Made by a program: the position numbers and the translations under genes
Assembly: GCA_037442745.1 (NCBI GenBank)
Contig: JBBIPP010000003.1
Span: 38,692 to 102,691 of the forward strand
DNA: 64,000 nucleotides
Origin: an archaeon
GTDB lineage: Archaea > SpSt-1190 > DYHY01
Direction: 5' to 3'
In this document: positions 55,598 through 64,000 of the stretch, in pieces
Layout of the letters: the number at the start of each line of letters is the position of its first letter
Position numbering within the stretch: the first letter of the stretch is position 1
Notes under the pieces: model-generated
The model's input: only the letters and a program-made list of their open reading frames with translations
Told to the model about the DNA's origin: nothing
Database searches by the model: none

Positions 55598-55674
55598 TGG
55601 TGGACCCGCTGGGATTTGAACCCAGGTCAAAGGCTCCGCAAGCCCCCATGCTATCCAAGCTATACCACGGGTCC
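55598..55674 (-). tRNA. tRNA-Arg(GCG), CCA encoded, no intron
   Basis: Acceptor stem GGACCCG/CGGGTCC + ACCA; anticodon loop UU-GCG-GA; T arm CUGGG-UUCAAAU-CCCAG. Confidence 0.93.
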
Positions 55675-56662: not shown

Positions 56663-56839
56663 ATGGCATTACATCAGGAAAAACCCTGCATCTCGTGCGG
56701 GAAGAAAATCTCTGCAATCAAAGGCAGTTTGACATTCAAGTGCCCGTCCTGCGGGGACGAGACAATCTACCGGTGCGCTTCGTGCAGGTCAGCCGGAAGA
56801 GCATATGTCTGCAATGGGTGCGGATTCGGTGGCCCCTAA
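56663..56839 (+). CDS. DUF1610 / HVO_2753-family Zn-ribbon protein
   Basis: CISCG, F.CPSCG, I.RC..CR and Y.C..CGF.GP; directly upstream of EF-1beta. Confidence 0.9.
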   Translation: MALHQEKPCISCGKKISAIKGSLTFKCPSCGDETIYRCASCRSAGRAYVCNGCGFGGP

Positions 56840-56840
56840 A

Positions 56841-57152
56841 ATGGACGCTCCCACTCAGCCAAAAAAGGACAAAAAGCCGACAAATGTTATTGTCGAATTC
56901 AAAATAATGCCTGAAGGGCTGGAAGTCGACCTCCCCGGAATTGAGGGGAAATTGAAAGGAATGGGCGCCCAGTCAATCCAGCAAAAGAACGTTGCATTCG
57001 GCCTAAAGGCAATCCACGCGATTTTCGCAATACCCGATTCAGAAGGAGGCGAAATGGACAGGGTTGAGAAGGAAATTCTCGCAATTCCCGGAGTCGGCGG
57101 AGCGGAAGTTGTTAACATGGGAAGACAAGTCGAAATGGACGATTTCCAGTAA
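56841..57152 (+). CDS. ef1b: Archaeal elongation factor 1-beta
   Basis: KIMPE..EVDL and VAFGLKA. Confidence 0.92.
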   Translation: MDAPTQPKKDKKPTNVIVEFKIMPEGLEVDLPGIEGKLKGMGAQSIQQKNVAFGLKAIHAIFAIPDSEGGEMDRVEKEILAIPGVGGAEVVNMGRQVEMDDFQ

Positions 57153-57185
57153 ACCTATAAATAACCAGAAAGCGAATCAGTTTCT

Positions 57186-57926
57186 GTGGAGAACCCAAGG
57201 CATATTGTCGAAATAGTAGAGACCAAATTCGTCAAGCTCGATTCCCCTATTGTTATTGAGGGCTTCCCATCAGTTGGGCTAGTTGGCTCAATTGCAACAG
57301 AATATCTGGCAACAAAGCTCGAAATGGAGGAAATAGGTTTTCTGAGATCTGACAGGCTCCCGCCAGTGACAATTGTAAAGGACGGAGTTCCAAAAACCCC
57401 CATACGTCTATATGCGAAAGACAACCTCATTGTTTTCGTCTCGGACACCGCAATCCCGGAGAACCTCACATATGAGATTGCCCGGACAATTGTTGCCTGG
57501 TCCAAAAAGCACGGAGCGAAAAGGATAATATCAATCGGAGGAATTGCAAGGGAGGAAAAGCCCGCAGAGCAAAAGCTATATGTTGTCGGAACCGACTCCG
57601 CAGAAATAAACGAAATTGTCGAAAAGCAGAAAGCAACCCCAATAAAGCTGGGGTTCTTGACAGGCCTTCTGGGAGTCCTTCTGGTGGAGTCAATGGAGAA
57701 CTCGATTCCAGCCCACGCATACCTGACCGACGCTTTCATTGATTCCCCGGACCCGAAAGCCGCCGCAAAAACCCTCGACGCAATTGCAACAGAGCTCGGC
57801 CTCTCAATTGAGACAGCGTCCCTTGTCCAGACTTCGGACAAGATTGAGAAGAAAATCAACCAGCTGATGACCCAGACAAAAAAGCACATTGACGAGTCCC
57901 ACGCATATCCGAGCGTCTACGGGTGA
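57186..57926 (+). CDS. PAC2-family proteasome assembly chaperone
   Basis: IEGFPSVGLVGSIA..L, PIRLY, SIGG and PDPKAA. Confidence 0.9.
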   Translation: MENPRHIVEIVETKFVKLDSPIVIEGFPSVGLVGSIATEYLATKLEMEEIGFLRSDRLPPVTIVKDGVPKTPIRLYAKDNLIVFVSDTAIPENLTYEIARTIVAWSKKHGAKRIISIGGIAREEKPAEQKLYVVGTDSAEINEIVEKQKATPIKLGFLTGLLGVLLVESMENSIPAHAYLTDAFIDSPDPKAAAKTLDAIATELGLSIETASLVQTSDKIEKKINQLMTQTKKHIDESHAYPSVYG

Positions 57927-58125: not shown

Positions 58126-61100
58126 ATGGCGGAAAACAAGGCAATATTTGACGGATTTGCGAACAAGTATTCACTGCAAAAAACGCTAAGGTTCGGGCTT
58201 ATTCCCGACTCCGAAAGCAAAAAATGGATTGAAAAAAACCTTGTAATTGAAAAGGACGAAAAGCTTGCCGAGGAATACAAGAAAGCCAAGAAAATCATCG
58301 ACAAGGTTCACAAGGCATTCATTGAGAGCGCCCTTGAAAAGCTGAAATTGAACGAAAAAGCCCTCACCGCCTTCGAAAAAGAGACTGCCAAGACAAAGAA
58401 GGAACGGGACAAGAAGACAATAGAGAAAATACAGGCTTCCTTGAGAAACGAGGTTGCAGATTCGTTCAACAAGGACAAGGAAGAATTCAAAGCAATGTTT
58501 TCCGAGAAAATGATAAAGGAAAACGCCCCCCGCTTCTGCAACACTGCTGAAGAAAAGGCGACAATGAAACTATTCGACAACTTCACGACATATTTCAAGG
58601 AATTCCATAAGAACAGAAAAAACATCTATTCCAATGAGGCAAAGGCAACCTCAATTGCTTTCAGGATTGTGCACGAAAACCTGGTCACATTTGTCGACAA
58701 TCTCAGGATATTCGCAAAAATAAGGGAGGGCGGTCTTGACCTTGACAAGGCCGAGTATGAGCTGAAAAGCATTTTAGGAAAAGAAAAAATCGAAAAGCTA
58801 TTCTCAATAGAATATTTCAACAAAGTTCTTTCCCAGGGCGGAATAGACTTTTACAACAGAATAATCGGGGGCGAATTCGAGGAAGGCTCAAGAAAGAAAA
58901 TCCGCGGACTAAATGAACTCATAAACCTCCACAACCAAAAGGAACGAGGCAAGCTCCCCCGTTTCAAACAACTCAAAAAGCAGATTCTAAGCGACAGAAA
59001 GAAATCCCTGGATTTCGGATTTTTGGATGATTCGGAGCTTCTTCAGGCAATTGAAGAGTTCTACTTGAAGGAACTTTCCGATGAAAACGGCAAACGGACG
59101 CCCGAAATGCTAAGGGCGCTATTTGAACGGGCTGAAGAATTCGATATTGAAAAAATACACCTGAGAAACGACAGCACCTTGAGGGAACTTTCGAACAAAT
59201 TGTTCGGCGACTGGTCAGCAATAGAAAACGCCCTTTCAGAGCATTACGAAAAAGAAAATCCGTCAAAAGACACGAAAAAATACGAAAAAGACAAGGAAAA
59301 ATGGCTCAAGCAGGACCAATTCCCGATAGCAACAATAGAGACGGCGCTTTCCTTATATGAACACGAAAAAGTCGACAAGGGAAAATGCAAGGGGCTATTT
59401 TTTAGGCAGTTTTCCTCGTTCAAAAAGGAAGAGGACGACAAGGAGAACTTGCTTGAGAGACTCGAGATTTCCTACAATAGAGCAAAGCCGATCCTTGAGA
59501 ACAAGTCGCCCGGAAACAGGCTTGCTTCAGACGAACAGGCAAAGGGAAAGCTGAAAGCCTTGCTGGACGCCCTGATTGACATTCTCCATTTTGTCAAGTC
59601 CCTCCGCCTGAAAGACGCGGCAATTTCCGACAAGGACTATTCCTTCTACGGGGAATTCGACCCGCTTTTTGAAAGGCTTGACGGAATAGTTGGGATTTAC
59701 AACAAGACACGGAACTATCTGACGAAAAAGCCCTACAGCACCGAGAAAATAAAGCTCAATTTTGAGAACTCTGTCCTGTTAGGTGGCTGGGATAGAAACA
59801 TAGAAGACACCAAGGGAGGAGTTATTTTCAGAAAAGATGGCCAGTTTTATCTCGGAATAATAAACAAAAATAACAAAACAATATTGAAGAATCCTCCGAA
59901 GGCAAAGGATGGAGAAGTTGCCTTTGAGAAGATGTTTTACAAATTAATACCTAACCCTGCCAGAGACCTTCATCACACAATTTTATCAAAAAAGAGAAGT
60001 GCTAAATATAAACCAACAAAAACCCTCCTTGAAAAATACGAACAAAAAAAGCACATCAAGGGCGACAATTTCGACAAGAAATTCTGCCACGAGCTGATAG
60101 ATTTCTTCAAGGAATCGATAAAGAAAAACCCCGATTGGGAGACTTTCAACTTCAAATTCTCCGAGACATCTTCATACGAGGACATTAGCGGATTTTACAG
60201 GGAAGTTGGACGACAAGGCTACAAGGTTGTTTTCGAGAGAATTCCCGCAAGCTACATAGAAACCCTTGTCAAGGAGGGAAAGCTCTACCTTTTCAAAATA
60301 TGGAGCAAGGACTTTTCCAAAGACAGCAAAGGGACGCCGAACATGCACACCCTGTATTGGAGGGCGCTCTTTGACGAGAAAAACTTGAAAGAGCCTATCT
60401 ACAAGCTTAACGGAGAGGCCGAAATGTTCTTCAGGAAAAGGTCGGTCGAGCCCAAAATAACGCACCCAGCGGGAAAGCCGATACCCAACAAGAACCCGGA
60501 CAACCTCAAAAAGGAAAGCGTCTTCAAATACGACCTGATAAAGGACCGGCGGTATTCCCTCGACAAGTTCCAGTTCCACGTTCCGATTACTACGAATTTC
60601 GGGAGCGAAGGGCAGGAATTTATTGACTATGATGTCCGGGACGCGATCAAAAAGAGTCCAGTCAGAATAATAGGAATTGACAGGGGGGAACGCAATCTCC
60701 TCTATCTCTCAATGATTGACGAGAACGGGAAAATTCTACTGCAGGAATCCCTGAACAAAATAACCTCCCTCTATGGCGGGGGAAAGAAAACAACCGACTA
60801 CAATTCACTCCTTGCAAGAAGCGAGGCTGGGCGGGACGAGGCAAGACGGGATTGGAAAAAAATCGAGAACATCAAGGAAATCAAGGAAGGCTACCTGTCC
60901 CAAGCAGTCCATAAAATCGCGACTCTAATGGTCGAGAACGAGGCAATTGTCGTAATGGAGGACTTAAATTCCGGCTTCAAGAGGGGGCGAACTAAGGTGG
61001 AGAAGCAAGTCTACCAAAAGTTCGAGAGAATGCTGATTGAAAAGCTAAACTATCTTGTTTTCAAGAAACGTTCTCCCGAAGAAGCGGGAGGATTGAGGAA

Positions 61101-61845
61101 CGCCCTCCAATTGACAAGCAAGTTCAAGAGCTTCGAGAAGCTCGGAAAACAGAGCGGATTTCTGTTCTATATTCCGGCGGCAATGACAAGCAAAATTGAC
61201 CCGGTAACCGGGTTTGCCAACGAGCTCAACCCGAAATACGAGAGCGTCGGCAAGTCAAAAGAGTTTTTCTCCAAGTTCGAGAGAATATCTTACAACAGCA
61301 AAAAGAACTGGTTCGAGTTTTCGTTCGACTATTCGAATTTCAAGACAAAGGACGGGCTTGAAGGGAAATGGGTTGTATGCTCAACCCCGCACGAACGATT
61401 CTATAGGAATGGCGGAGCCAAGGGCGGAGCCAAGGGCGAAACTCTCCCGATGAACGCGAACGAAGAGCTGAAAAAATTGTTCGGGGAATTCGGGATTGAA
61501 TATTCAACTGGGGATTGCCTGAAGAAGGAAATAGTTTCAAAGGATTCGAAGGAGTTCTTCAAGAAACTAACCCGGGTTCTTGCGTCAATCCTGTCCCTCC
61601 GGCAGAACAACGGAAAAACTGGGCAGGATGAGCAAGACTACATACTTTCGCCAGTGGAACCCTTCTTCTGCTCCCTTGACGGAAAAGACGGGCTTCCAAA
61701 GGACGCCGACGCAAACGGAGCATATAACATTGCTAGAAAAGGCCTCCTGGCAGTCCGCCAAATAAGGTCTGCAGAAGACCCGAAAAAGGCCAGATTGGCA
61801 ATCCGCAACAAAGAGTGGCTGGAATTTGCGCAGGCAATGAAGTAA
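58126..61845 (+). CDS. cas12a: Type V-A CRISPR effector Cas12a (Cpf1)
   Basis: KYSLQKTLRFGL; RuvC motifs IGIDRGERNL, VMEDLN and DADANGAYNIA; RNase-site region NMHTLYW / KLNGEAE / FHVPI. Confidence 0.98.
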   Translation: MAENKAIFDGFANKYSLQKTLRFGLIPDSESKKWIEKNLVIEKDEKLAEEYKKAKKIIDKVHKAFIESALEKLKLNEKALTAFEKETAKTKKERDKKTIEKIQASLRNEVADSFNKDKEEFKAMFSEKMIKENAPRFCNTAEEKATMKLFDNFTTYFKEFHKNRKNIYSNEAKATSIAFRIVHENLVTFVDNLRIFAKIREGGLDLDKAEYELKSILGKEKIEKLFSIEYFNKVLSQGGIDFYNRIIGGEFEEGSRKKIRGLNELINLHNQKERGKLPRFKQLKKQILSDRKKSLDFGFLDDSELLQAIEEFYLKELSDENGKRTPEMLRALFERAEEFDIEKIHLRNDSTLRELSNKLFGDWSAIENALSEHYEKENPSKDTKKYEKDKEKWLKQDQFPIATIETALSLYEHEKVDKGKCKGLFFRQFSSFKKEEDDKENLLERLEISYNRAKPILENKSPGNRLASDEQAKGKLKALLDALIDILHFVKSLRLKDAAISDKDYSFYGEFDPLFERLDGIVGIYNKTRNYLTKKPYSTEKIKLNFENSVLLGGWDRNIEDTKGGVIFRKDGQFYLGIINKNNKTILKNPPKAKDGEVAFEKMFYKLIPNPARDLHHTILSKKRSAKYKPTKTLLEKYEQKKHIKGDNFDKKFCHELIDFFKESIKKNPDWETFNFKFSETSSYEDISGFYREVGRQGYKVVFERIPASYIETLVKEGKLYLFKIWSKDFSKDSKGTPNMHTLYWRALFDEKNLKEPIYKLNGEAEMFFRKRSVEPKITHPAGKPIPNKNPDNLKKESVFKYDLIKDRRYSLDKFQFHVPITTNFGSEGQEFIDYDVRDAIKKSPVRIIGIDRGERNLLYLSMIDENGKILLQESLNKITSLYGGGKKTTDYNSLLARSEAGRDEARRDWKKIENIKEIKEGYLSQAVHKIATLMVENEAIVVMEDLNSGFKRGRTKVEKQVYQKFERMLIEKLNYLVFKKRSPEEAGGLRNALQLTSKFKSFEKLGKQSGFLFYIPAAMTSKIDPVTGFANELNPKYESVGKSKEFFSKFERISYNSKKNWFEFSFDYSNFKTKDGLEGKWVVCSTPHERFYRNGGAKGGAKGETLPMNANEELKKLFGEFGIEYSTGDCLKKEIVSKDSKEFFKKLTRVLASILSLRQNNGKTGQDEQDYILSPVEPFFCSLDGKDGLPKDADANGAYNIARKGLLAVRQIRSAEDPKKARLAIRNKEWLEFAQAMK

Positions 61846-61866: not shown

Positions 61867-62424
61867 ATGGAGAACCCCATATCAATATCGAGCCTGAACG
61901 ACTTTGTCTTCTGCCCGAGAAGCATCTACTTCCACAACCTCTACTATTTCCTCGACGAGGGAACATACAAAGACGTTCCCCAGGCAAAGGGCCGGGCAAG
62001 CCACGAAACAATAGAGTCCGGGAAATATTCTTCCAAAGCAGGGATTCTGAAGGCAATTTCGGTGTATAGCGAGGAGCTGGGGATTGCCGGGAAGATAGAT
62101 CTGCTAGATCTCGAGAAAAAGACCTTGATAGAGCGCAAGCGCAAAATATCTCAGCTATATGAAGGATACCTTCTTCAGGTATATGCGCAGTATTTCTGCC
62201 TGATTGAGATGGGCTTTTCCGTCGAGAAAATAAAAATACACTCGGTTTCCGACAACAAGACCTACGACATTCCGATTCCCGGAGAGGCCGAAAAAGCCCG
62301 GCTCAAGGAAATTCTTCTGAAAATGAATTCCTACGACCTCGCCTTCCCCTTCTCGCAGAACCCGAAAAAATGCGCCGGGTGCATATACAGGAACGCGTGC
62401 GACATTTACGAAAATGATGAGTAG
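61867..62424 (+). CDS. cas4: CRISPR-associated Cas4 (type V-A)
   Basis: LNDFVFCPRSIY, GKID, ERK, QVYAQ and C..C.Y...C. Confidence 0.95.
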   Translation: MENPISISSLNDFVFCPRSIYFHNLYYFLDEGTYKDVPQAKGRASHETIESGKYSSKAGILKAISVYSEELGIAGKIDLLDLEKKTLIERKRKISQLYEGYLLQVYAQYFCLIEMGFSVEKIKIHSVSDNKTYDIPIPGEAEKARLKEILLKMNSYDLAFPFSQNPKKCAGCIYRNACDIYENDE

Positions 62425-63382
62425 ACCCGATTTTCTGGCCAAGCAAATAGTGCTCGTCGAGACGAGTTCCTCAATGAAGTTGCGGATCAAGAACTCCAAC
62501 ATGGTCTTGGAGGATTGCGAGGGAAAGACTGCGCTTCAGAACTCGATGCACAGAATTTTCCTGATATTCGTCCTAGGAGAGACTTCAATAACCTCAGTTT
62601 TCATAAAGGAGGCGAAAAAGCACGCAGTCCCGGTAATCTTCCTGAACTACAACCTGAAGGCATACCACGCGGTTTTTCCCGACGACCGGGGGAATTTTCT
62701 CCTGCGAAAAAAGCAGTACGAGTCAAAGGACAATTTCGCAATAGCGAAAAAAATCGTCCTAAACAAGTCGGAAAACCAGCTTTTCCTAGCCAACTCACTA
62801 AGATACAAGACCTTGGAGGAAGCGGAAGCAATCGAGAAACTCAAGGGGCTGATTAGCCAGGTGGCGACAGCCAAAGACGACAAGGAACTTTTGGGAATTG
62901 AAGGGAACATATCCCGGCTCTATTTCGCAACATATTTCAAAAACATGGACTTTAAGGGAAGGCAGCCAAGATGCAAGGCTGACCCGATAAACCTGCTTCT
63001 CGACATAGGATATCACTATTTGTTCAATTTCATCGAAGCTAACCTCAGGCTCTACGACTTTGACCTCTACTGCGGAGTCTACCACAAATTTTTTTACCAG
63101 AGAAAATCACTCGTCTGCGACATAATAGAGCCATTCCGGCCAATAATAGACCGGCAAGTCAGAAAAATGCATAATTTGGGGCAAATGAAGGAAGACCGGT
63201 TCGAGTCAAGGAACGGGCAGTTCTACCCCAAGCCCGAGCACTCGAAAGAGTTTTCCGCAATTTTTATGAAGGAAATTCTCGCCCACAAGGAGGAAATTTT
63301 CCTTTATGTTCAGGCCTATTACCGGGCGTTCATGAAAGGGAAGGACATCTCCCAATACCCGGAGTTTTGGATGGAGCAATGA
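62414..63382 (+). CDS. cas1: CRISPR-associated Cas1
   Basis: LLGIEG, R.PR..D..N.LLD.GY and H..FY.RKSLVCDIIEPFR. Confidence 0.96.
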   Translation: MMSRPDFLAKQIVLVETSSSMKLRIKNSNMVLEDCEGKTALQNSMHRIFLIFVLGETSITSVFIKEAKKHAVPVIFLNYNLKAYHAVFPDDRGNFLLRKKQYESKDNFAIAKKIVLNKSENQLFLANSLRYKTLEEAEAIEKLKGLISQVATAKDDKELLGIEGNISRLYFATYFKNMDFKGRQPRCKADPINLLLDIGYHYLFNFIEANLRLYDFDLYCGVYHKFFYQRKSLVCDIIEPFRPIIDRQVRKMHNLGQMKEDRFESRNGQFYPKPEHSKEFSAIFMKEILAHKEEIFLYVQAYYRAFMKGKDISQYPEFWMEQ

Positions 63383-63385
63383 AAA

Positions 63386-63658
63386 ATGCTCATATTGACA
63401 TACGACATACAGGACAATCGGCTCAGGACAAAGTTTTCGAACTTTGTTTTGCAATACGGGGAACGCCTACAATACTCCGTTTATGAAATAAGGAACTCTC
63501 CGAGGATATTGGAGCTGGTCAAATTCGGGATAAAAGAAAAATTTGAACGCAAATTCGGACAGGGGGATAGCGTAATAATTTTCAACATAAAGGAAACCTC
63601 CGAAATATTGCGTTTTGGAAATGCCAAAAACGCGGAAACGGACCTCTTGATTTACTGA
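63386..63658 (+). CDS. cas2: CRISPR-associated Cas2
   Basis: YDI..NRLR and RLQYSVYE. Confidence 0.95.
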   Translation: MLILTYDIQDNRLRTKFSNFVLQYGERLQYSVYEIRNSPRILELVKFGIKEKFERKFGQGDSVIIFNIKETSEILRFGNAKNAETDLLIY

Positions 63659-63877: not shown

Positions 63878-64000
63878 GTCTAGAGCTCTGGTCTAATTTC
63901 TACTATTGTAGATCCTGAAAACGGGTTAAAAGCGCGAAAGTCTAGAGCTCTGGTCTAATTTCTACTATTGTAGATGGACGACAGGTTCGACGAATGATTG
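63878..64000 (+). CRISPR. Type V-A CRISPR array (truncated by the window end)
   Basis: 36-bp repeat GTCTAGAGCTCTGGTCTAATTTCTACTATTGTAGAT at 63878-63913 and 63940-63975; 26-bp spacer CCTGAAAACGGGTTAAAAGCGCGAAA; partial second spacer 63976-64000. Confidence 0.97.

What the first reader, a model, noticed from the sequence alone, without database searches (positions are those of the whole stretch)
59761..59990. Cas12a with naturally rewired PAM-reading residues; a non-TTTV PAM is predicted
Seen: the protein reads LGGWDRNIEDTK and YKLIPNPARDLHHTILSKK. Known: LbCas12a reads MGGWDKDKETDY and YKLLPGPNKMLPKVFFSKK, where K538, Y542 and K595 (As K548/N552/K607) read the TTTV PAM. By-eye alignment gives K538->I559, Y542->K563 and the minor-groove LKL lysine K595->H617. 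The first two resemble the engineered RVR variant (K538V/Y542R). All three RuvC acidic residues and the crRNA-processing His are intact. Inference: an active nuclease with an altered PAM, of editing interest.
Basis: partly seen in the sequence, partly recalled or inferred. Interest (0 to 1): 0.9.

Follow-up and report, generated by a model that had tools for sequence, protein, structure and literature searches.

The report
Archaeal Cas12a with rewritten PAM-reading residues
An intact Cas12a gene-cutting enzyme in a small archaeal genome has lost both lysines that normally read the TTTV target-flanking motif, which may change which DNA sites it can cut, though no natural target could be found to show this.

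Summary
ORF 58126-61845 (+) is a full-length Cas12a (1239 aa), followed by cas4, cas1, cas2 and a canonical Cas12a repeat array. The catalytic and RNase residues are intact.

New context:
- One close relative (87% identical) shares the Ile/Lys/His set. The next (85%) is fully canonical.
- Of 31 substitutions assigned to the stem branch, 16 fall in residues 541-645, about 8% of the protein. They hit sites that are 92-98% conserved.
- Across 150 diverse Cas12a representatives, His at the PI lysine position occurs 17 times. A Val/Lys/His trio recurs in three other sequences, in two separate parts of the tree.
- H617 sits at the lysine that the anti-CRISPR AcrVA5 acetylates.

The altered-PAM inference stays untested. 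Searches with seven spacers found no protospacer. PdCas12a lacks the WED lysine and still prefers TTTC, and natural type V PAMs are reported as conserved.

Verdict: a real, uncommon natural variant of a known enzyme, with about even odds of a non-TTTV PAM. Interest is moderate.

The parts
58126..61845 (+). cas12a (type V-A effector), 1239 aa, intact
   Evidence: ORF. Pfam RuvC_1 4.7e-100, REC1 9.8e-66, REC2 1.9e-50, NUC 6.1e-38, PI 3.8e-29. PDB phmmer E=0 to ReChb, 1e-277 to 6iv6 (Mb), about 1e-276 to Fn and 1e-256 to Lb.
59746..60060 (+). Divergence hot-spot, residues 541-645 (WED-II loop plus the N-terminal PI domain): the PAM-reading module
   Evidence: In a sliding window, identity of P0002 to P0004 falls to 37-70% only here, against 93-97% in the flanks. 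Of 31 stem-branch substitutions, 16 lie here; binomial P=6e-10.
59782..59814 (+). WED loop GGWDRNIEDTK: G553 (As S542), I559 (As K548/Lb K538/Fn K613) and K563 (As N552/Lb Y542)
   Evidence: In the panel of 150 representatives, the 559 position is K in 130 and the 563 position is N in 105.
59938..59994 (+). LKL segment of the PI domain, YKLIPNPARDLHHTILSKK: R613, D614, H616 (conserved Pro position) and H617 (Lb K595/Mb K635; As K607/Fn K671 by recalled equivalence)
   Evidence: In the panel the 617 position is K 123, H 17, R 9, G 1, and the 616 position is P in 147 of 150. The segment is modelled as a helix over residues 611-619, with block pLDDT 92-94.
58582..58623 (+). REC1 PAM-proximal loop FTTYFKEFHKNRKN: T155 (As T167) retained, K158 (As S170), K162 (As E174/Lb D156)
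   Evidence: Gap-free phmmer alignments to the Lb and As chains. P0003 and P0004 have Glu at 162. Lys occurs here in 17 of 105 full-length representatives.
60463..60543 (+). Pre-crRNA processing residues H780, K789 and K806
   Evidence: They align with Fn H843, K852 and K869; codons checked.
60679..61710 (+). RuvC catalytic residues D852 (IGIDRGER), E945 (VVMEDLN) and D1195 (DADANGAY)
   Evidence: E945 aligns with Fn E1006, which is Q in the inactive mutant 5nfv.
61867..62424 (+). cas4
   Evidence: Pfam Cas_Cas4 4.6e-10.
62414..63382 (+). cas1
   Evidence: Pfam Cas_Cas1 2e-53.
63386..63658 (+). cas2
   Evidence: Pfam CRISPR_Cas2 6.5e-13.
63878..64000 (+). Start of the CRISPR array: 36-nt repeat ending AATTTCTACTATTGTAGAT, spacers of 26-29 nt. 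It runs off the contig and continues at the end of contig C9 (6 more repeats, with a 120-N gap)

Best explanation
This is a working type V-A CRISPR-Cas locus (cas12a-cas4-cas1-cas2-array). It was acquired horizontally by a small-genome archaeon. On a recent branch, its Cas12a had the two protein elements that read the PAM duplex rewritten. In the WED loop, the major-groove lysine became Ile (I559), and a Lys (K563) appeared four residues downstream. This matches the geometry of the engineered K548V/N552R pair. In the PI domain, the minor-groove 'LKL' helix changed from NKMLPKVFF to ARDLHHTIL. The inserted lysine is now His (H617), with an Asp (D614) one helical turn before it. In this genome's copy, a Glu-to-Lys change in REC1 (K162 = As E174) adds a positive charge near the PAM. 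I infer that the enzyme still needs a 5' A/T-rich PAM. A His in the minor groove can still donate a hydrogen bond to T-O2 or A-N3 and would still be hindered by the amino group of G. I also infer that the base preference at -3, and perhaps -2, is shifted or relaxed relative to TTTV, towards TATV/TWTV as in RVR. The likely driver is an arms race at the PAM-binding cleft: viral PAM escape, or anti-CRISPRs that attack the cleft. AcrVA5 acetylates exactly this lysine, and AcrVA1 mimics the PAM. Shown here: the identity of the gene, the residue mapping, intact catalytic sites, clustering of the substitutions, and their convergent recurrence. Inferred: the PAM shift, the Asp-His pairing, and the selective driver.
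For: Residue mapping comes from formal alignments. The fragment 500-760 folds with mean pLDDT 89 and matches the Cas12a WED-PI region of ReChb, Lb2, Fn and Lb at TMq 0.72-0.79 for most of these chains. The closest relatives form a natural series. P0003 is 87.3% identical and has I/K/H. P0004 is 84.8% identical and has the canonical K/N/K and NKMLPKVFF. Of the 84 sites where P0002 = P0003 but P0004 differs, 31 are assigned to the (P0002,P0003) stem. Sixteen of those 31 lie in residues 541-645, a rate about 11 times higher than in the rest of the protein (binomial P=6e-10). They replace residues that are 92-98% conserved among 117 relatives, namely K559I, N563K, L608I, G610N, N612A, K613R, M614D, K617H, V618T, F619I and F620L. 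No sampled donor is closer in the module: P0004 is 58% identical and the next best is 47%. A Val/Lys/His trio also occurs in P0210, P0213 and P0235. These sit in two other parts of a tree built without the module columns, while the nearest neighbours of this clade are K/N/K. Among 105 full-length representatives, loss of Lys at the WED and PI positions co-occurs: 8/6/12/79, odds ratio 8.8, P=7e-4, not corrected for phylogeny. Asp at 614 goes with H/R at 617 in 6 of 9 cases, against 20 of 141 otherwise. In the AsCpf1 saturation screen, most hits for TATC and TGTC PAMs were substitutions at K548, and K548V was the most active at TATC (10.1101/091611, passages). N552R makes new hydrogen bonds to the -3 base (PMC7261169, passages). 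K595/K635 is the residue that AcrVA5 acetylates (PMC7556299, passages).
Against: There is no direct PAM evidence. Searches with the 7 usable spacers found 0 protospacers in the genome itself, the 17 genomes of the phylum, IMG/VR, JGI metagenomes (one spacer only) or GenBank phages. PdCas12a has Asn at the As K548 position and still strongly recognises only ATTTC. [quoted passage not shown] Bioinformatically inferred type V PAMs are described as highly conserved in nature (10.1101/2025.01.06.631536). His at the PI lysine position occurs in 17 of 150 representatives and Lys at 162 in 17 of 105, so each single change is an ordinary natural alternative. The third RVR change (Arg at As S542) is absent, since the protein has G553. 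The co-occurrence statistics ignore phylogeny, and branch supports for the deep nodes of the tree were not examined. No DNA was available for P0003 or P0004, so dN/dS could not be computed. Import of the module by recombination from an unsampled lineage is therefore not excluded.
Confidence: 0.5

Rival explanations
1. The PAM is the same and only the contacts differ. The enzyme still prefers a T-rich TTTV/TTV PAM. Under this reading, His (with Asp614) takes over from the minor-groove Lys, and K563 and K162 replace the lost charge. The rewrite was then selected mainly because it removes the lysine attacked by acetylating anti-CRISPRs, or changes the surface bound by PAM-mimic anti-CRISPRs.
For: H617 occupies Mb K635/Lb K595, which is the AcrVA5 target (PMC7556299). 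PdCas12a, with Asn at the K548 position, keeps TTTC. His or Arg sits at this position in 26 of 150 diverse representatives, which is easier to explain if the basic PAM is kept. Natural type V PAMs are reported as conserved.
Against: Substitutions at K548 opened TATC/TGTC recognition in AsCpf1. The co-occurring aliphatic and Lys pair mimics the specificity-switching V/R pair and arose repeatedly together with His. No AcrVA5-like gene was looked for or is known in viruses of this archaeal group.
Confidence: 0.3
2. The PAM is relaxed or promiscuous. Loss of both base-reading lysines, together with extra non-specific positive charges (K563, K158, K162, K622, K623), gives a nuclease with weak PAM discrimination, for example NTTN, YYN or near PAM-less.
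For: The E174R-type change is part of the enAsCas12a variants (10.1101/2024.09.27.615316, passage); that it broadens the PAM is recalled, not read. K162 is that position. PiCas12a, with Ser at the K548 position, is promiscuous. Stem-branch changes E622K and S623K add charge next to the LKL helix.
Against: P0003 shares the I/K/H set but keeps Glu at 162, so the extra REC1 charge is not part of the shared design. A PAM-less effector risks cutting its own array. There are no data from this protein.
Confidence: 0.12
3. Target binding is degenerating. The substitutions, especially H616 at the nearly invariant proline and the loss of K617, cripple PAM binding, so the locus is on its way to inactivation.
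For: Position 616 is Pro in 147 of 150 representatives and never His. That the PI lysine is essential is stated in PMC7556299.
Against: The ORF is full length with all catalytic and RNase residues intact. The adaptation genes are intact and the array holds at least 8 repeats. P0003 carries the same core set and is 92-100% identical outside the module, which points to purifying selection. The model keeps a confident helix.
Confidence: 0.05

Closest known systems
LbCas12a / AsCas12a / FnCas12a (canonical type V-A effectors, TTTV or TTV PAM)
   Same: Same domain order (REC1, REC2, WED, PI, RuvC, Nuc), the same RuvC D/E/D and RNase H/K/K, the same repeat handle (AAUUUCUAC-N4-GUAGAU) and the same cas4-cas1-cas2 neighbours.
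   Different: The WED lysine (As K548/Lb K538) is Ile. As N552/Lb Y542 is Lys. The LKL helix reads ARDLHHTIL instead of NKMLPKVFF, so the minor-groove lysine (Lb K595) is His and the preceding Pro is His.
Engineered AsCas12a RVR (S542R/K548V/N552R) and LbCas12a G532R/K538V/Y542R, TATV PAM
   Same: An aliphatic residue at the K548 position and a basic residue at the N552 position.
   Different: There is no Arg at the S542 position (G553), and Lys rather than Arg at the N552 position. The PI lysine, which RVR keeps, is also replaced. The variant is natural, not engineered. Its PAM is unknown.
PiCas12a and PdCas12a (Prevotella ihumii / P. disiens)
   Same: Both are natural Cas12a without Lys at the As K548 position: Ser in Pi and Asn in Pd, per PMC7261169 passages.
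   Different: Their replacements are polar, not aliphatic. The passages read do not report a change at the PI lysine. Their PAMs were measured: Pd mainly ATTTC, Pi promiscuous.
Unnamed metagenomic Cas12a P0210, P0213 and P0235
   Same: All carry the Val/Lys/His trio at the same three positions.
   Different: They are only 31-39% identical overall, have different LKL sequences and keep the Pro. None carries a name in the sources.
MbCas12a/LbCas12a as targets of the anti-CRISPR AcrVA5
   Same: H617 aligns with the acetylated lysine, Mb K635/Lb K595.
   Different: There is no lysine here to acetylate. Whether any such anti-CRISPR acts in this host is unknown.

Membership tests
Cas12a (Cpf1), type V-A effector | Single split RuvC domain with catalytic D/E/D, plus a Nuc domain | tested here: met
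   Pfam RuvC_1 4.7e-100 and NUC 6.1e-38. D852, E945 and D1195 align with Fn D917, Fn E1006 and Lb D1180.
Cas12a (Cpf1), type V-A effector | WED-domain pre-crRNA RNase residues (Fn H843/K852/K869) | tested here: met
   H780, K789 and K806 align in a gap-free stretch.
Cas12a (Cpf1), type V-A effector | REC1, REC2 and PI domains in Cas12a order | tested here: met
   Pfam REC1, cas_Cpf1_2nd and Cpf1_PI-like. The fragment model matches the Cas12a WED-PI region at TMq up to 0.79.
Cas12a (Cpf1), type V-A effector | 36-nt repeat with a 3' stem-loop handle (UCUAC-loop-GUAGAU), spacer downstream, no tracrRNA | tested here: met
   The repeat GTCTAGAGCTCTGGTCTAATTTCTACTATTGTAGAT occurs in 8 copies over two contig ends. 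A tracrRNA was not searched for.
Cas12a (Cpf1), type V-A effector | Adjacent cas4-cas1-cas2 adaptation genes | tested here: met
Cas12a (Cpf1), type V-A effector | Conserved PAM-reading lysines (As K548, As K607) and a T-rich 5' PAM | tested here: not met
   The lysines are replaced by I559 and H617. The PAM itself could not be determined, as no protospacer was found. These lysines are typical rather than definitional: 20 of 150 and 27 of 150 representatives lack them.
RVR-type (TATV-reading) Cas12a variants | Aliphatic residue at As K548 and basic residue at As N552 | tested here: met
   I559 and K563.
RVR-type (TATV-reading) Cas12a variants | Arg at As S542 / Lb G532 | tested here: not met
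   The protein has G553.
RVR-type (TATV-reading) Cas12a variants | Cleavage preference for TATV | not testable with these tools
   This needs a PAM library assay or protospacer flanks.

The most novel reading that the evidence does not exclude
The combination of an aliphatic residue and a Lys four residues on in the WED loop, with an Asp-His pair in the LKL helix, is a second natural way for Cas12a to read its PAM. It has evolved convergently at least two or three times. It specifies a non-TTTV motif (TATV/TWTV-like) and also removes the lysine that acetylating anti-CRISPRs target. The 105-residue WED/PI module would then be an arms-race hot-spot that can flip between the two states in proteins that are otherwise about 85% identical.
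Probability: 0.3. Interest if true: 0.7.

Novelty: new variant of a known kind. Interest (0 to 1): 0.5.

Why it matters
Cas12a editing and diagnostics are limited by the TTTV PAM. Nearly all altered-PAM versions are engineered, often at a cost in activity. This locus supplies a matched natural trio: two proteins with the Ile/Lys/His set and one canonical sister, all about 85% identical. That allows a clean module-swap experiment on how PAM specificity is encoded.

If the PAM is shifted, the trio gives a naturally optimised scaffold and a design rule (the Asp-His wedge). If the PAM is unchanged, it shows that the 'essential' PI lysine can be replaced. It would also suggest natural resistance to lysine-acetylating anti-CRISPRs. 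Either result is informative. However, natural PAM variation among Cas12a orthologs is already documented, so this refines what is known rather than adding a new principle.

Tried and rejected
Protospacer and PAM inference gave nothing.
- The array is split between the end of contig C3 and the end of C9. It yields 7 usable spacers: S1, a partial S2, S3, S4, S5, S7 and S8. One more is lost in a 120-N gap.
- There are no self-matches at 5 or fewer mismatches.
- Exact scans of viral contigs gave 0 hits in all 8 scans: whole S1 and S3, and the first 20 nt of S4, S5, S7, S8, S2 and S3.
- The first 23 nt of S1 in metagenome contigs gave 0 hits.
- One of the three array pieces (the one holding S3-S5) was searched against the 17 genomes of the phylum. 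Only arrays and chance matches with E above 0.29 came back. The pieces holding S1, S2, S7 and S8 were not searched there.
- All three array pieces against GenBank phages, blastn at E up to 10, gave only repeat-like sequences and chance hits. The best was a 24-nt match with one mismatch in a Salmonella phage ligase gene, E=0.7.
- The plasmid collection was not searched.

No close relatives with DNA were obtained. The search for related loci with P0002 in metagenome contigs matched 143 pattern stretches, none a relative. P0003 and P0004 exist only as proteins from Logan assemblies. Their arrays, cas4/cas1 genes and codon-level selection therefore could not be examined.

I tried to learn the PAM of a natural His-bearing Cas12a (L068, a Phocaeicola MAG).
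- Its array against phages gave 4 records, all chance-level at E=0.09.
- Against 401 genomes of its family, the repeats swamped the search, and only 2 candidates per genome were scored.
- Two partial matches (25/29 and 23/29) of one low-complexity spacer turned up in another genome, with 5' flanks CATA and CCTA. I rejected these as too weak.

The pairwise tblastn tabulation of the 80 GTDB loci is unreliable at the LKL segment because of alignment shifts, visible. I rely on the MAFFT panels instead.

Recombination from a sampled donor is rejected. Within the module no protein is closer than P0004. An unsampled donor cannot be excluded.

Literature:
- A search for K607H, K595H, K671H, K548I, K538I and K613I found 8 papers, none about Cas12a.
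- A search in PMC8986864 for the PAM-contact terms found nothing.
- Supplements are closed. Document S1 of PMC7261169 (an ortholog alignment) and the supplementary mutant heat-maps of 10.1101/091611 may show whether Ile at K548 or His at K607 was ever measured. I could not see them.

Full report
**What is there.** Window 59761-59990 translates in frame to FENSVLLGGWDRNIEDTKGG...YKLIPNPARDLHHTILS. It lies inside ORF 58126-61845 (+), 1239 aa. Pfam finds the five Cas12a domains: RuvC_1, REC1, REC2, NUC and PI. phmmer against PDB sequences gives E=0 to the resurrected Cas12a ReChb, 1e-277 to the 6iv6 chain (MbCas12a), about 1e-276 to FnCas12a and about 1e-256 to LbCas12a. Downstream lie cas4 (61867-62424), cas1 (62414-63382) and cas2 (63386-63658). 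A CRISPR array follows, with a 36-nt repeat that ends in the canonical Cas12a handle AATTTCTACTATTGTAGAT. The contig ends inside the array, which continues at the end of contig C9. In all there are 8 repeats and a 120-N gap.

The host genome is 1.14 Mb in 20 contigs, 94.5% complete and about 49% G+C. It is archaeal: the archaeal SSU model scores 1442.7 bits against 1112.8 for the bacterial model. Upstream genes are archaeal housekeeping genes, namely an EF-1 GNE-domain protein and a PAC2-family protein. Only this genome holds a Cas12a among the 5 genomes of its order and the 17 of its phylum. The nearest named relatives are in Methanosarcinales and Bacteroidales MAGs, at 53% identity or less. 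The cas12a gene is somewhat lower in G+C, at 41-46%. The locus therefore looks horizontally acquired.

**The observation.**
- In the phmmer alignment to LbCas12a (chain 6kl9_A, native numbering), GGWDRNIEDTK pairs with GGWDKDKETDY, and YKLIPNPARDLHHTILSKK pairs with YKLLPGPNKMLPKVFFSKK. This gives K538->I559, Y542->K563 and K595->H617.
- The native-length As chains start at 519 against segment residue 1. This puts I559 at As K548 and K563 at As N552, assuming the single gap of that stretch lies further on; the As alignment was not printed.
- The MbCas12a chain places H617 at K635.
- In REC1, gap-free alignments put T155 at As T167 (retained), K158 at As S170, and K162 at As E174/Lb D156.
- The catalytic residues are in place: H780/K789/K806 = Fn H843/K852/K869, D852 = Fn D917, and E945 = Fn E1006. 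The inactive mutant chain 5nfv shows Q in that last column. D1195 aligns with the Asp of Lb NADANGAY. Codons were checked.
- A model of residues 500-760, built from an alignment of 40 sequences, has mean pLDDT 89. It keeps a confident helix over 611-619 and matches the WED-PI region of solved Cas12a structures, with TMq 0.78-0.79 to the two ReChb ternary complexes and 0.72-0.77 to most Lb2, Fn and Lb chains. Because the alignment is dominated by canonical sequences, this shows only that the fold is compatible.

**How unusual it is.** Among the 120 nearest proteins listed of 3312 hits, 4 lack Lys at the WED position and 5 lack it at the PI position. Only the query and P0003 lack both.

A broader panel gives a different picture. 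It consists of the best 150 of 717 representatives of 50%-identity clusters, taken from a search with residues 530-700.
- WED position: Lys in 130 of 150.
- N552 position: N 105, Y 22, K 7, R 2.
- PI position: K 123, H 17, R 9, G 1.
- Position 616: Pro in 147 of 150, and never His.

So each single change is an uncommon but ordinary natural alternative. Only H616 is unique to this protein. Lys at position 162 occurs in 17 of 105 full-length representatives.

**What is new about the context.** First, there is a natural allelic series. P0003 is 87.3% identical and shares I/K/H (GGWDMNIERVKGG; NPARDLPHTIL). P0004 is 84.8% identical and is fully canonical (GWDKNKEADN; NKMLPKVFF).

Second, the difference is sharply local.
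- In 30-residue windows, identity of P0002 to P0004 is 93-97% on both sides but falls to 37-70% across residues 541-645.
- I polarised changes with P0005 and the consensus of 117 relatives. There are 84 sites where P0002 = P0003 and P0004 differs. Of these, 31 are assigned to the stem of (P0002, P0003), 24 to the P0004 branch, and 29 are ambiguous.
- Sixteen of the 31 stem changes lie in the 105-residue module (binomial P=6e-10).
- They replace residues that are 92-98% conserved: K559I, N563K, L608I, G610N, N612A, K613R, M614D, K617H, V618T, F619I and F620L.
- Within the module, P0004 is still the closest outside relative, at 58% against 47% for the next. This fits accelerated change in place better than import from a sampled donor. 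Without DNA for P0003 and P0004 I could not compute dN/dS or exclude an unsampled donor.

Third, the solution recurs.
- Val/Lys/His at the same three positions is found in P0210, P0213 and P0235.
- I built a FastTree of 108 full-length sequences with the module columns left out. P0210 and P0213 are sisters in one place. P0235 sits inside a separate clade that carries His. This clade is nested among K/N/K proteins.
- Supports for the deep branches were not examined, so I count at least two origins and probably three.
- Loss of Lys at the two positions co-occurs (8/6/12/79 among 105; odds ratio 8.8, P=7e-4).
- Asp at 614 accompanies H/R at 617 in 6 of 9 cases, against 20 of 141 otherwise (P=9e-4).
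- These tests ignore relatedness and overstate significance.
- D614 lies one helical turn before H617. From this I infer, without showing it, an Asp-His pair that keeps the His protonated as a lysine substitute.

**What it probably does.** Established knowledge comes from passages read in PMC6546366, 10.1101/091611, PMC7261169 and PMC7556299.
- Cas12a reads the PAM through major-groove contacts from WED and REC1, and through a PI lysine inserted in the minor groove.
- In the AsCpf1 saturation screen, most hits for TATC and TGTC were substitutions at K548, with K548V the best at TATC.
- N552R creates new hydrogen bonds to the -3 base.
- S542R/K548V/N552R reads TATV.

On this basis the Ile/Lys pair is expected to shift or relax position -3. 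A minor-groove His should still favour A/T over G/C. I therefore commit to an A/T-rich PAM that is not TTTV, of the TATV/TWTV kind, at about 50%.

Several facts count against this.
- PdCas12a has Asn at the K548 position yet strongly recognises only ATTTC. [quoted passage not shown]
- A large bioinformatic survey describes natural type V PAMs as highly conserved.
- The S542R equivalent is missing.
- There is no direct datum, because no protospacer was found for the 7 usable spacers.

**Rival readings.**
- About 30%: the PAM is unchanged, and the rewrite was selected because it removes or reshapes what anti-CRISPRs attack. H617 sits exactly at the lysine that AcrVA5 acetylates.
- About 12%: PAM discrimination is relaxed.
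- About 5%: DNA binding is decaying.

The driver (anti-CRISPR or PAM escape) and the outcome (shifted or unchanged PAM) are partly independent questions.

**Novelty and verdict.** The gene is a member of a very well known family. Natural PAM diversity among Cas12a orthologs, and natural loss of the WED lysine, are both in print. In the searches I ran I found no description of three things. They are a natural Cas12a with His at the PI lysine position, the recurrent aliphatic/Lys/His trio, and a local burst of substitutions in the PAM-reading module between near-identical proteins. The supplements that might bear on this are closed.

I class it as a new variant of a known kind, of moderate interest (0.5). 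The matched trio P0002, P0003 and P0004 makes it directly testable.

Noticed in passing
L100 1501-1538 (MK170447.1 14858-14895, Methanosarcina virus MetMV): An intergenic solitary Cas12a-type repeat (TAAATTTCTACTATTGTAGAT) is followed by about 45 nt and a hairpin with a T-run. It could be a virus-borne solitary repeat or mini-array, or an RNA anti-CRISPR. Weaker repeat-like hits also occur in Microviridae and Capybara microvirus records.
   Followed up: partly
window 63878-64000; G000 contig C9 64606-65094 (minus strand): The CRISPR array is split over two contig ends, and a 120-N scaffold gap swallows at least one spacer. The true array is longer than the window shows.
   Followed up: yes
G011:C25:11066-11705 (L008, L013): Another small archaeal genome of the same class has an array at a contig end with repeats about 68% similar to this one. 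No Cas12a was found in that genome with P0002 as query.
   Followed up: partly
L057, L073, L076, L083; L068, L092, L074; L022, L075, L080, L094: The LKL segment of natural Cas12a is far more varied than the textbook NKMLPKVFF. Forms seen include ALPMGFGAFVRKC, AKSLWHVFF, YRQLFHVFF and NxxLPR.
   Followed up: partly
L068 9428-9456 against G019:C250 and G019:C254 (L134, L135): One spacer of a His-bearing Phocaeicola Cas12a array has two partial matches (25/29 and 23/29) in small contigs of another Bacteroides genome, with 5' flanks CATA and CCTA. The sequence is low-complexity and there are only two matches, so no conclusion is drawn.
   Followed up: partly
window 58582-58623: Only this genome's copy has K158, E159 and K162 in the REC1 PAM-proximal loop, where P0003 and P0004 have T/A, G and E. 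K162 is the position of the activity-enhancing E174R/D156R engineering changes.
   Followed up: yes
window 55601-55674 (-) and 56805-57926 (+): A tRNA gene (Rfam, 50.6 bits), an EF-1 GNE-domain gene and a PAC2-family gene lie directly upstream of cas12a. The locus therefore sits in ordinary chromosomal context, not on an obvious mobile element.
   Followed up: no
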